From assembly GCA_027013245.1 (NCBI GenBank), contig JALUXT010000111.1, forward strand, positions 1 through 50,418: a stretch of 50,418 nucleotides of DNA, read 5' to 3'. Below are positions 605 through 13,570 of this stretch, piece by piece. How positions within the stretch are numbered: position 1 is the stretch's first letter; each line of letters opens with the position of its first letter. This DNA is from Campylobacteraceae bacterium. Lineage in GTDB: Bacteria > Campylobacterota > Campylobacteria > Campylobacterales > Sulfurospirillaceae. The position numbers were made by a program, and so were the translations under genes. Under the pieces are notes generated by a model. The model did not search any database. It was not told the DNA's origin and was given only the letters and a program-made list of their open reading frames with translations.

Positions 605-704
605 TGAACCAGTAACTCTAAGATTTATCTTTGAGACAATCGGAGTTATATTTGTTTTCATTGCGATAAGCATATTTTTAGTAAAAAGCAGGAGTATGAA
701 TTGA
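597..704 (+). CDS. Small single-TM hydrophobic protein (35 aa, MFSEPVTLRFIFETIGVIFVFIAISIFLVKSRSMN)
   Basis: ATG at 597 overlaps the ileS end and the stop overlaps the gatA TTG start. Fills the ileS-gatA gap exactly and has one hydrophobic helix. Confidence 0.6.
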   Translation: MFSEPVTLRFIFETIGVIFVFIAISIFLVKSRSMN

Positions 705-2056
705 TAACATTAAAAGAAGCTCTTAGCCTTCCCAAAGAAGAGATAGCACATGTTAGGCAAGATTTAATAAAAAAGATAGAAGATAAAAAAGAGATAGGCG
801 CTTATATAGAACAGTTGACAAATACGGAAATTTCTCAGTATATGGATGGCATCCCAATAGCTATAAAAGATAATATCCAAGTAAATGGCTGGGAAGTAAC
901 GAGTGGTTCAAACATACTTCAAGGTTACATTGCCCCATATAACGCAACGGTTATAAACAATATGCTACATCACGGCTTATCCCCATTTGGTAGAACAAAT
1001 ATGGATGAATTTGCTATGGGAAGCTCGACTGAGAGTTCGTTTTATGGCAAAACTAGAAACCCTCATGATTTAAGCAGAGTGCCAGGAGGAAGCAGTGGCG
1101 GAAGTGCGGCAGCAGTGGCTGGGGGCATCGCAATAGCGGCTCTTGGAAGCGATACAGGTGGAAGTATCAGACAGCCTGCGTCTTTTTGTGGTTGCGTTGG
1201 TATGAAACCAACATATGGAAAAGTAAGTAGATATGGACTTGGAGCATATTCTAGCTCACTTGACCAAATAGGACCAATCACTCAAAATGTTGAAGATGCA
1301 GCCATTTTGTATGACATCATAGCAGGACATGAAAGCCGTGATTCCACTAGTGCAAATATCGCTCATAAAAAAGTATCTGATGCTTTAAATCCAGACAAAA
1401 AGATGACTATCGCAGTGATAGAAAACTATCTTAGCGAAGCAAATGCGGATGTGCAAGAAAAGATGAGAGAGAGCATAAAAGCACTTGAGCTTGCAGGCCA
1501 TAAAATCATATATAAAAACTTTATAAATACAAAATACGATATAGCAACCTACTACATCATAGCAACCGCAGAAGCGAGTGCAAATCTTAGTAGATATGAT
1601 GGAGTAAGATATGGCAACAGGCAATCAAACGAGAGCTTAAAAGACATGTATCTACAAAGTAGAAGCCTTGGATTTGGTGAAGAAGTAAAGAGACGAATCT
1701 TGCTTGGAACTTTTGTTTTGAGTAGTGGATATTATGATGCTTACTACATAAAAGCACAAAAAGCTAGACATTTTATAAAAAAACAATATGAAGAGATTTT
1801 TGAAGAGGCAGATTTGATATTTGCTCCAGTTGCTCCAACTCCTGCATTTGAATTTGGAAGTAAAAAAGACCCGCTTGAGATGTATTTAAGTGATGCATAT
1901 ACAATCTCTTTAAATCTTGCAGGACTCCCGGGAATTTCAGTTCCATTGGGTAAAAATGCACAGGGTTTACCAATAGGTGGACAATTGATAGGAAAAGCAT
2001 ATGGCGAACAAGAGCTTTTTAACGGAGCTATGAGTTTAGAAAGAGAATTAAAATAA
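701..2056 (+). CDS. gatA: Asp-tRNA(Asn)/Glu-tRNA(Gln) amidotransferase subunit A
   Basis: Amidase signature GGSSGGSAAAVA and GSDTGGSIRQPA; SANLSRYDGVRYG; EVKRRILLGT. SD AGGAG upstream. Confidence 0.97.
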   Translation: MITLKEALSLPKEEIAHVRQDLIKKIEDKKEIGAYIEQLTNTEISQYMDGIPIAIKDNIQVNGWEVTSGSNILQGYIAPYNATVINNMLHHGLSPFGRTNMDEFAMGSSTESSFYGKTRNPHDLSRVPGGSSGGSAAAVAGGIAIAALGSDTGGSIRQPASFCGCVGMKPTYGKVSRYGLGAYSSSLDQIGPITQNVEDAAILYDIIAGHESRDSTSANIAHKKVSDALNPDKKMTIAVIENYLSEANADVQEKMRESIKALELAGHKIIYKNFINTKYDIATYYIIATAEASANLSRYDGVRYGNRQSNESLKDMYLQSRSLGFGEEVKRRILLGTFVLSSGYYDAYYIKAQKARHFIKKQYEEIFEEADLIFAPVAPTPAFEFGSKKDPLEMYLSDAYTISLNLAGLPGISVPLGKNAQGLPIGGQLIGKAYGEQELFNGAMSLERELK

Positions 2057-2069
2057 AAAACAGGAGAGT

Positions 2070-2151
2070 AAAATGAGATACAGAGTTTTTACTCGCGCAA
2101 TAGGGCGAGGAATTTTTGCGGAATTTACTTCCGTAAAAAGGGGACATTAAA
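2070..2151 (+). repeat. Structured leader element, copy 1 (contains a 25-codon uORF at 2073..2150)
   Basis: Shares ATACAGAG, CTCG, GCGAGGAATTT and AAGGGG blocks and three hairpins with 13108..13192. uORF MRYRVFTRAIGRGIFAEFTSVKRGH has SD CAGGAG and stops 1 nt before the guaB ATG. Confidence 0.75.
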
Positions 2152-4900: not shown

Positions 4901-5691
4901 AATGTGCCGCACTTCAACTTTCTACTCTTCCTATGAGTGAAGCAAAATTAGATTATTATTTTAGAATTTGTGAGAAAAAAGGTGTGGAGCTTATTTTATT
5001 GAGTGAATATGCACTAAATAGTTTTTTTAAAGAGTTAGAGACTATGCCGATTCTTATGATAAAAGAGCAGACAAATCACAAAATAAAAATTTTAAAAGAT
5101 TTATGCAGTAGATACAATATCACAGCAATTGCTCCGATTGTTTTGGTTAAAGGTGAAAAACTGTTTAAATCTGTTGCAAAATTTTCGCCTAAAAGTGTGC
5201 ATTATTATAATCAGCAATTTTTGATAAATTTTAAACATTGGGATGAAGAAAAGTTTTTTGACAATGTTGTAGAGATATTTTCTACACCAATATTTACATT
5301 AAATAAGATAAGATTTGGAATCATAAGTGGTTATGAGGCACATTTTGATGCAGTTTGGATGGATGCTATGAAAAAAAATGTAGATGTGGTTTTGATGCCA
5401 TCATCTTCAACATTTGATTCTGCAAATAGATGGCAAGCTATGCTAAAAACAAGAGCATTTTTAAACTCTATGTACATTTTAAGAGCCAATAGAGTAGGAA
5501 ATTACAGTGATGATAAAATATCTTGGAGGTTTTATGGACATAGTAAACTAGTAAATCCTTACGGAGAGATTGAACTCTCACTTGGGCACAAAGAAGAGAT
5601 ACTTCTATGCGATATAGAAAAAGAAGAGTCTTTAAATGCAAAAAAACTATGGGGCTGGAAAAAGCAACTCGCTAAAAGGGGTCAGGGTTAA
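4897..5691 (+). CDS. Carbon-nitrogen hydrolase (nitrilase superfamily) protein
   Basis: AALQL...LSEY; ANRVG; FYGHSKLVNPYG. The typical catalytic Cys position reads ISGYE. Confidence 0.85.
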   Translation: MKCAALQLSTLPMSEAKLDYYFRICEKKGVELILLSEYALNSFFKELETMPILMIKEQTNHKIKILKDLCSRYNITAIAPIVLVKGEKLFKSVAKFSPKSVHYYNQQFLINFKHWDEEKFFDNVVEIFSTPIFTLNKIRFGIISGYEAHFDAVWMDAMKKNVDVVLMPSSSTFDSANRWQAMLKTRAFLNSMYILRANRVGNYSDDKISWRFYGHSKLVNPYGEIELSLGHKEEILLCDIEKEESLNAKKLWGWKKQLAKRGQG

Positions 5692-5735
5692 ACTTTTAAC
5701 TTTTTTAAAAAGTTAAAAGTTTAACCCTGACCCCT
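5677..5735. repeat. 59-bp perfect palindrome (29-bp arms, 1-nt centre), REP/MITE-like
   Basis: AGGGGTCAGGGTTAAACTTTTAACTTTTT-T-AAAAAGTTAAAAGTTTAACCCTGACCCCT. Confidence 0.9.
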
Positions 5736-13107: not shown

Positions 13108-13192
13108 AAAATGAAATTATACAGAGCGATAGCTCGTGCTTTAGTCGCGAGGAATTTGTCAGGAGCTTTGCTCCTAACAAAGGGGGCATAAG
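13108..13192 (+). repeat. Structured leader element, copy 2 (contains a 26-codon uORF at 13111..13191)
   Basis: Homologous to 2070..2151 with covarying stems. uORF MKLYRAIARALVARNLSGALLLTKGA has SD GAGGAG and stops 1 nt before the ridA ATG. Confidence 0.75.
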
Positions 13193-13570
13193 ATGAAATT
13201 TATCCAAACAAATAAAGCACCAACTGCAATAGGACCATACTCTCAAGCTGTTGAGGTAGGTGAGATGATATTTACATCAGGACAGATTGGGCTCACAAAA
13301 GATGGTGATTTGGTTGAAGGTGGCGTGGAAGCGCAGGCAAAGCAAGTTTTAACAAATCTTAGTGAAGTTTTAAAAGAAGCTGGAAGTTCTCTCTCTAATG
13401 TAGTAAAAACTACTATATTTTTGGCAGATATGAGTGATTTTGCTGAGGTAAATAAGATTTATGCTGAGTTTTTTGGTGATCATAAACCAGCTCGCTCAAC
13501 TGTGGCGGTAAAAACTTTGCCTCTAAATGTTAGCATAGAAATAGATGCTATTGCCATAAAATTAAGATAA
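13193..13570 (+). CDS. ridA: RidA/YjgF family enamine-imine deaminase
   Basis: APTAIGPYSQA; SGQIG; VVKTTIFL; PARSTVAVKTLP..IEIDAIA. Confidence 0.92.
   Translation: MKFIQTNKAPTAIGPYSQAVEVGEMIFTSGQIGLTKDGDLVEGGVEAQAKQVLTNLSEVLKEAGSSLSNVVKTTIFLADMSDFAEVNKIYAEFFGDHKPARSTVAVKTLPLNVSIEIDAIAIKLR

What the first reader, a model, noticed from the sequence alone, without database searches (positions are those of the whole stretch)
2070..2151. Dispersed ~80-nt structured leader with covarying, mutually exclusive hairpins and a coupled uORF (copy before guaB)
Seen: this spacer and 13108..13192 share ATACAGAG, CTCG, GCGAGGAATTT and AAGGGG in the same order. The variable parts differ in sequence but keep their pairing. 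Stem A is GAGT-tttt-ACTC (2083-2094) vs GAGC-gata-GCTC. Stem B is CTCGC..GCGAG (2092-2109) vs CTCGTG..CGCGAG. Stem C is TTTTTGCGGAA..TTCCGTAAAAA (2113-2139) vs TTTGT-C-AGGAGC..GCTCCT-A-ACAAA. Stems A and B compete for the same CTC, and stem C abuts the downstream SD. Each copy lies inside an SD-led uORF of 25-26 codons ending TAA-N-ATG. The shared GCGAGGAATTT block is read in different frames in the two uORFs, so conservation is at the nucleic-acid level and not the peptide. Inference: an unannotated cis-regulatory RNA switch or a non-autonomous mobile element that inserts at gene starts. I cannot match it to a named riboswitch or REP family.
Basis: partly seen in the sequence, partly recalled or inferred. 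Interest (0 to 1): 0.85.

Follow-up and report, generated by a model that had tools for sequence, protein, structure and literature searches.

The report
Mobile hairpin cassette at start codons
This is one copy of an apparently undescribed, roughly 82-base hairpin repeat of sulfur-cycling Campylobacterales; it sits on the transcribed strand just before start codons with its own ribosome-binding site, is precisely present or absent between close strains, and is likely a small selfish mobile element rather than a gene-specific switch.

Summary
Stem C covaries strongly, with G-T wobbles favoured on the sense strand. All 131 scored terminal copies are sense to the downstream feature, most with ATG 9-14 nt after stem C. 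Copies also sit in RNase P RNA P12 (14 of 49 loci), before the 16S rRNA 5' end and before a tRNA, where nothing is translated. A ~98%-identical contig from another study lacks exactly the 82 nt of copy 2, which lie between 8-nt ATGAAATT direct repeats. The gatA-guaB copy is missing in 9 same-genus genomes. So the 'uORF' is likely the host's own start left upstream by the duplication; a loose SD+ATG precedes only 39 of 122 solo copies. Host genes form no regulon. Best reading: a non-autonomous REP/MITE-like element that brings its own Shine-Dalgarno site and so is tolerated. No Rfam match, GTAG tag, terminal inverted repeats or adjacent transposase; the mobilising enzyme was not found.

The parts
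2073..2151 (+). Copy 1 (gatA-guaB spacer), about 79 nt from the upstream ATG to the base before guaB ATG; type X with a worn core
   Evidence: spacer only -4 to 26 nt in 9 same-genus genomes
2062..2081 (+). Upstream SD and ATG, likely the host's own guaB start left behind; imperfect direct repeat of 2148-2160; forms the 'uORF' start
   Evidence: resembles the SD and ATG of empty alleles in G004 and G008; inference
2083..2094 (+). Hairpin A, copy 1
   Evidence: sequence
2097..2112 (+). Conserved core, worn here; a near-identical contig in run X2 has the consensus core
   Evidence: 3 of 4 substitutions and the 1 insertion over 286 nt fall in 2096-2104
2113..2139 (+). Stem C, copy 1 (11 bp)
2140..2151 (+). 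Element-borne SD and spacer, ending TAA-A before guaB ATG
13111..13192 (+). Copy 2 (dapE to Rid-family gene): exact 82-nt unit, absent from an otherwise ~98% identical contig
   Evidence: joint 13110 to 13193, skips 82, 8 letters fit both sides, 3529-nt contig
13111..13118 (+). Left 8-nt direct repeat ATGAAATT (the 'uORF' start)
13124..13135 (+). Hairpin A, copy 2
13138..13154 (+). Conserved core (type X)
13155..13181 (+). Stem C, copy 2 (12 bp with one mismatch, TTT loop)
13182..13192 (+). Element-borne SD and spacer
13193..13200 (+). Right 8-nt direct repeat, the real start of the Rid-family gene
701..2056 (+). gatA (flank)
   Evidence: TIGR00132
2152..3600 (+). guaB (host gene)
   Evidence: TIGR01302
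11941..13098 (+). dapE (flank)
   Evidence: TIGR01246
13193..13570 (+). Rid-family hydrolase (host gene)
   Evidence: TIGR00004

Best explanation
The feature is one copy of a dispersed ~82-nt hairpin repeat that lies sense to transcription just before an ATG, and it is likely a non-autonomous mobile element of the REP/MITE kind that would enter and leave by recombination across a short direct repeat containing the ATG. Shown: the anatomy (hairpin A, invariant core, covarying stem C, SD, spacer, ATG), the precise empty allele, patchy occupancy, tandem arrays and block swaps. Inferred: entry duplicates about 7-8 nt around the ATG, so the old start stays upstream as a short stop-terminated 'uORF' while the element's own SD drives the gene; that is why such copies are tolerated. 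Inferred: SD-less variants (type Z) persist where a second ribosome site would cost most, before highly expressed genes and in stable RNAs. Untested: the agent is likely a single-strand HUH (Y1) enzyme acting in trans on the folded sense strand, with host recombination causing arrays and swaps.
For: Precise 82-nt absence with 8 letters fitting both sides. gatA-guaB is empty in 9 same-genus genomes and filled by different subtypes in 4 genomes of other genera. dapE-Rid is empty in 9 and filled in G002, G011 and G006. G002 has copies at two sites empty in G000 (C36, C57). Copy number runs from 2-3 to 107 inside one family. 43 internal tandem units were found. Five of 12 hand-picked orthologous G000/G002 pairs differ by whole blocks while flanking genes are 91-99% identical. 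The base before the 16S 5' ATG is occupied in 6 of 15 genomes by four subtypes, is empty in 6, and carries a 10-nt duplication in G206. RNase P P12 is occupied in 14 of 49 loci. Sequence around an upstream ATG matches the copy's own downstream start better than permuted pairs (n=31, p=0.0016 and 0.0012). A sister repeat with terminal inverted repeats and free orientation shares three modules. X/Y copies have a start 9-12 nt after stem C in 58 of 59 cases; Z copies use a separate start 20-94 nt away in 18 of 19.
Against: No mobilising gene was found: only 1 of 40 Y1 loci has a copy (0.8 kb from an IS200-type gene), GIY-YIG hits are one ~600-aa gene per genome, and a reverse transcriptase occurs in 1 of 5 genomes. 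The clean empty allele is probably a loss: it is in a ~98% strain while G002 and contigs in X3 and X9 (~95%) carry the copy, and deletion between direct repeats needs no transposase. The same genes (purH, nadC, glmM, argF, trxB, rplK; names partly recognised from sequence) carry copies in several genomes, which old inheritance could also explain. The 31-copy duplication test still holds one tandem member and one orthologous pair. Seven of 12 orthologous pairs are as conserved as their genes. No true copy was found in viral contigs, phages or plasmids. An invariant core and strict sense orientation are unusual for neutral REPs and suggest selection on the RNA.
Confidence: 0.62

Rival explanations
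1. The element is a domesticated RNA signal: a host protein or nuclease binds the invariant core and stem C on the transcript and sets stability, processing or initiation. It is kept by selection and spread only secondarily.
For: 0 of 131 terminal copies are antisense or convergent, against 83 of 638 (13%) of WWATGRA intergenic sites in G000. G-T outnumbers A-C 103 to 27 on the sense strand. The core loop is mostly GNRA and resembles the 23S sarcin-ricin loop of these genomes. Both GGA/SD-like motifs are lost together in type Z (T/A 47, G/G 244, G/A 12, T/G 2). Copies persist in RNase P across a genus.
Against: Occupancy differs between ~98% strains and across a genus with no shared pathway. 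P12 copies are often deleted or replaced by other hairpins. Copy number varies about fortyfold. G-T bias also fits single-stranded DNA, and is reported for REPs (PMC3733652, section 5).
Confidence: 0.18
2. No dedicated enzyme is involved. Hairpin-driven replication slippage and microhomology recombination at the A/T-rich SD-ATG region make arrays, swaps, precise losses and rare gains, and selection removes every copy that does not supply a working start.
For: Variable break points of partial tandem units, block swaps, precise loss between 8-nt repeats, no linked enzyme, and an inverted copy of the target beside the element in G045 and G009.
Against: It does not explain why the core stays invariant over nine families while stems are rewritten, nor why neutral convergent gaps are never used (22 of 638 sites) although the sister repeat uses them.
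Confidence: 0.16
3. It is a metabolite- or ribosome-sensing switch whose uORF is coupled to the downstream gene.
For: Folds A and B compete in silico, in opposite directions in types X/Y and Z. Both window copies have SD-led uORFs ending TAA-N-ATG.
Against: uORFs occur in a minority of copies, in all frames, without a conserved peptide. Hosts are unrelated and include non-coding RNAs. The SD is mostly unpaired in both folds. The uORF start is the duplicated target.
Confidence: 0.04

Closest known systems
REP/REPIN elements with RAYT (GTAG and CGTC families; PMC3733652: passages, section 5 and a supplement search; PMC6006769: passages)
   Same: Many intergenic copies, covarying stems with G-T pairs, short T-rich loops, tandem clusters that include flanking DNA, chromosomal inheritance.
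   Different: No conserved GTAG or CGTC tag (GTAG before the core in 43 of 301), no flanked RAYT, always sense and at gene 5' ends, built-in SD, ATG-containing direct repeat. The consensus of the paper's Sulfurovum families is in a figure I could not see, so overlap with them is not excluded.
Bacterial MITEs, especially Rickettsia palindromic elements (RPE; PMC2229807: passages)
   Same: Small structured repeat tolerated inside essential RNAs; RPEs are reported in M1 (RNase P) RNA and tmRNA.
   Different: No terminal inverted repeats in the copies as a set, no TA duplication, no in-frame fusion seen (all 5 frame-0 uORFs have stops). It is tolerated by supplying a new start, not by an open frame.
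TD-1 motif of Treponema denticola and MAEB of Burkholderia (PMC1950547: passages)
   Same: Multi-copy covarying motifs in 5' position before unrelated genes; MAEB forms tandem arrays.
   Different: No Rfam hit, different taxa; here precise empty alleles and stable-RNA hosts are shown.
Specialised group IIB1 introns at start or stop codons (PMC12584367: passages)
   Same: Mobile elements that colonise translation signals of housekeeping genes and leave the gene working.
   Different: 82 nt, no ribozyme, no reverse transcriptase, no sign of splicing.
TIRYT, Y1 subclass 2.1 with GGGG[AT][CG]A[CG] inverted repeats (PMC6006769: passages)
   Same: Type X ends often read GGGGACAG, the same motif; such Y1 genes occur in the same genomes.
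   Different: The motif is absent in types Y and Z, lies at one end only, and no copy flanks a TIRYT gene.
TAACTGA repeats of Beggiatoaceae (PMC4679880: abstract and outline)
   Same: Repeats a few nucleotides before start codons of unrelated genes.
   Different: Unstructured heptamers, no reported empty/filled pairs.

Membership tests
REP/REPIN (RAYT-associated) | Many intergenic imperfect palindromes with covarying stems | tested here: met
REP/REPIN (RAYT-associated) | Conserved GTAG or CGTC tag at the foot of the hairpin | tested here: not met
   4-mer before the core: AAAG 89, CGTG 59, GTAG 43 of 301
REP/REPIN (RAYT-associated) | Cognate Y1 transposase gene flanked by the repeats | tested here: not met
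   1 of 40 Y1 loci has a copy, 0.8 kb from an IS200-type gene; 40 of the 63 listed matches were examined and draft genomes may lack the gene
REP/REPIN (RAYT-associated) | Either orientation, including convergent gaps (recalled property) | tested here: not met
   0 of 131 terminal copies antisense or convergent
MITE (Correia/ERIC/RUP/RPE type) | Terminal inverted repeats | tested here: not met
   mean longest match 4.24 own against 4.22 cross, n=285; an outer stem exists in RNase P copies and in the sister family
MITE (Correia/ERIC/RUP/RPE type) | Target-site duplication and precise empty site | tested here: met
   8-nt direct repeat, 82-nt precise absence; direction (gain or loss) not settled
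MITE (Correia/ERIC/RUP/RPE type) | Ends shared with an autonomous IS | tested here: inconclusive
   only the GGGGACAG likeness to TIRYT ends
Rfam cis-regulatory RNA or riboswitch | Match to a covariance model at gathering score | tested here: not met
Rfam cis-regulatory RNA or riboswitch | Coherent set of regulated genes, conserved between relatives | tested here: not met
Rfam cis-regulatory RNA or riboswitch | Ligand binding or expression change | not testable with these tools
   needs probing and reporters
Leader-peptide attenuator | uORF with conserved frame and peptide | tested here: not met
   39 of 122 solo copies; frames 0/1/2 = 5/9/25
Intrinsic terminator | U-run after the hairpin | tested here: not met
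   stem C has the T-run before and the A-run after on both strands
IS200/IS605-type single-strand element | Orientation fixed by replication direction | tested here: inconclusive
   11 of 13 loci co-directional in complete G013 if the terminus lies opposite dnaA; housekeeping hosts give the same bias

The most novel reading that the evidence does not exclude
A new class of minimal mobile element: an 82-nt 'start-codon cassette' that recognises WATGRA on the exposed sense strand of transcribed DNA (or on RNA), integrates and excises through a circular or single-stranded intermediate joined at the ATG, and pays its way by carrying a portable ribosome-binding site. It would rewire translation initiation at dozens of housekeeping genes and add a domain to RNase P RNA, using an as yet unidentified enzyme that reads the invariant core.
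Probability: 0.2. Interest if true: 0.85.

Novelty: new variant of a known kind. Interest (0 to 1): 0.62.

Why it matters
Small bacterial repeats usually avoid harm by sitting after genes or keeping a frame open. This family seems to avoid harm by replacing the gene's translation start, and it does so at up to about 100 copies per genome in dominant vent and marine sulfur bacteria. Natural filled and empty alleles that differ by exactly 82 nt make it directly testable whether such repeats are parasites or regulators. The family also creates false 25-codon ORFs and breaks metagenome assemblies at gene starts.

Tried and rejected
Rfam: no gathering-score hit in the window and only chance hits at E-value thresholds. 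Viral contigs: 5 pattern hits, none with stem C or SD. Phage and plasmid blastn: none. Earlier scan findings: none. No RNA holder listed, so expression is untested. Mobiliser search: Y1, GIY-YIG and RT gave no link. K-turn, hammerhead, HDV-like, hairpin-ribozyme, boxA and triplex readings of the core were weighed by eye against recalled consensus patterns and dropped: types X and Z break the K-turn rules, and the junction correlation rests on a few subfamilies. The sarcin-ricin likeness is noted, not claimed: a subtype in the 16S leader lacks it and the predicted fold often pairs the GAGA. The hairpin A wobble count is unusable because my score rewarded A-C. The first duplication test held tandem members and was redone. 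The class-level model search scored only 30 candidates per genome and undercounts. Paper searches (listings only unless cited) showed no description of this family; subscription papers, ISfinder and figure-only consensus sequences were not searchable.

Full report
Observation. The hosts are gatA-guaB and dapE-Rid. Rfam has no match.

It is a family. An iterated HMM gives 38 hits at E<0.01 among 46 listed, at 28 loci. All are intergenic. A looser pattern occurs in 99 of 401 genomes of the order, in 9 families, and in none of the genomes searched from f10 (43), f12 (42), f14 (21), f18 (42) and f19 (20); the reversed control gave 2 hits in all. The covariance model finds 29 copies in G002, 86 in G003, 107 in G010, 55, 36 and 30 in three others, and 2-3 in genus g3.

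Anatomy. TTCT (or TACAG), hairpin A, GCTTYAGT, G(A/C)GAGGAA, a 12-bp stem C with a TTT loop, GGAGA or GGGGAC, about 7 nt, ATG. Stem C is 90.5% paired on 81 copies, with 326 double-change cells against 128 in shuffles. Over 131 distinct stems there are 1382 Watson-Crick pairs, 103 G-T, 27 A-C and 60 other on the sense strand. The folded strand is therefore the sense strand, as RNA or single-stranded DNA. Folds A and B compete in prediction, but the SD stays mostly open in both. Types X and Y carry an SD and have a start 9-12 nt after stem C in 58 of 59 cases. Type Z has lost both GGA motifs and uses a separate start in 18 of 19 cases. Its hosts include rplK, rpoZ, infA, soxZ and oorD and, by my reading of the sequences, tuf, rplL, rpsG, rpsJ and dnaK.

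Orientation. Of 459 HMM hits, 343 parsed as distinct full copies and 301 passed a core filter. Leaving out pattern-selected loci, 43 internal tandem units and 7 copies near ends, 131 terminal copies remain, some orthologous to each other. Of these, 121 have a sense ORF start within 59 nt (93 at 9-14 nt). The other 10 are four short ORFs, rpsG at 94 nt, a tRNA, 16S rRNA, two RNase P RNAs and a lepA end duplication; all are sense. In G000, 83 of 638 intergenic WWATGRA sites are antisense or convergent (rough ORF calls), so the rule is not chance.

Non-coding hosts. The element lies in P12 of RNase P RNA (Rfam RF00010) in 14 of 49 readable loci, with an outer stem and with partly deleted forms in relatives. 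It ends at the ATGGAGAG 5' end of 16S rRNA in 6 of 15 genomes, as four subtypes; 6 are empty, 1 has a worn insert between 10-nt duplications, and 2 were not informative. The right boundary is thus an ATG-containing sequence even where nothing is translated.

Dynamics. The gatA-guaB spacer is -4 to 26 nt in 9 same-genus genomes, a remnant in 2, and filled with other subtypes in 4 genomes of other genera (27 of 30 loci parsed). dapE-Rid is empty in 9 relatives; G001 keeps only the SD. G002 has copies at two sites that are empty in G000. Of 12 orthologous filled pairs that I picked from 22 loci, 5 differ by whole blocks and 7 do not. In run X2, a 286-nt contig over copy 1 differs by 4 substitutions and 1 insertion, all but one inside the core. 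A 3529-nt contig in the same run skips exactly 13111-13192, with 8 letters fitting both sides. This defines the unit and its ATGAAATT direct repeat. More distant strains carry the copy, so this allele is probably a precise loss; that limits what it proves about insertion. Across 31 solo copies, bases around the upstream ATG match the copy's own downstream start better than permutations (p about 0.001-0.002, with the caveats given above).

The uORF. A loosely defined SD+ATG precedes 39 of 122 solo copies; frames are 5/9/25 and peptides are unrelated. It follows from the duplicated start and the stop-rich 3' end.

Mobiliser. Y1 genes occur in 32 of 41 genomes, mostly TIRYT-type with GGGG[AT][CG]A[CG] ends (PMC6006769, passages). 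Only 1 of 40 Y1 loci has a copy nearby. GIY-YIG and RT searches gave nothing linked. A sister repeat (5 copies in G000, 19 of 61 family genomes) has terminal inverted repeats and free orientation, and shares the TTCTC-hairpin, GCTTYAG and GC-TTT-GC modules and a similar right end. This suggests descent from a MITE/REP-like ancestor (inference).

Comparison and verdict. It works like a REP/MITE-type non-autonomous element but fails the REP tests (tag, RAYT, orientation) and the MITE inverted-repeat test. RPEs in RNase P RNA (PMC2229807), TD-1 and MAEB (PMC1950547) and start/stop-codon introns (PMC12584367) are analogies, read as passages. Nine paper searches showed no description; the figure with Sulfurovum GTAG and CGTC consensus sequences in PMC3733652 could not be seen. 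Verdict: new variant of a known kind, interest 0.62. The mechanism of gain and any effect on expression are untested.

Noticed in passing
window 5678-5734: Perfect 57-nt palindrome with GGGGTCAG...CTGACCCC ends, a TIRYT-type miniature element; related repeats recur many times in G000 and upstream of its Y1 genes.
   Followed up: partly
G000 C7:18110, C9:145, C33:2821, C74:5889, C102:11117: Sister ~120-nt repeat with terminal inverted repeats, any orientation, sharing modules with the finding; in 19 of 61 family genomes.
   Followed up: partly
L376, L379, L381, L385, L386, L388 (RNase P genes of G002, G012, G211, G212, G205, G004): A further hairpin family (CTGCCCATA...TATGGGCAG) occupies P3 and/or P12 of RNase P RNA and replaces stem C in three G002 copies; RNase P RNA is a hotspot for mobile hairpins here.
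   Followed up: partly
L249 (G045:C14:168789): Copy lies between ~52-nt direct repeats of a gene end (lepA by my reading) and is preceded by an 11-nt antisense copy of that target.
   Followed up: no
L380 (G003:C1): A second, divergent RNase P RNA on a 2.5-kb contig, also with the element in P12; may be contamination.
   Followed up: no
G000 C17:3069 and C54:11781: Two nadC-like genes with different element subtypes upstream; may reflect strain mixing.
   Followed up: no
L232 (G002:C175) against G000 C56: Element marks a break in synteny: G002 has a PIN-like gene upstream (recognised by eye), G000 a different gene and only the SD.
   Followed up: no
window 13138-13154; 23S in L402, L403, L408: The core resembles the genomes' own 23S sarcin-ricin loop, with variation mostly at the N and R positions of a GNRA loop.
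   Followed up: partly
L400 and L415 (G179): Two rRNA operons of one genome carry different variants of the 16S-leader insert.
   Followed up: no
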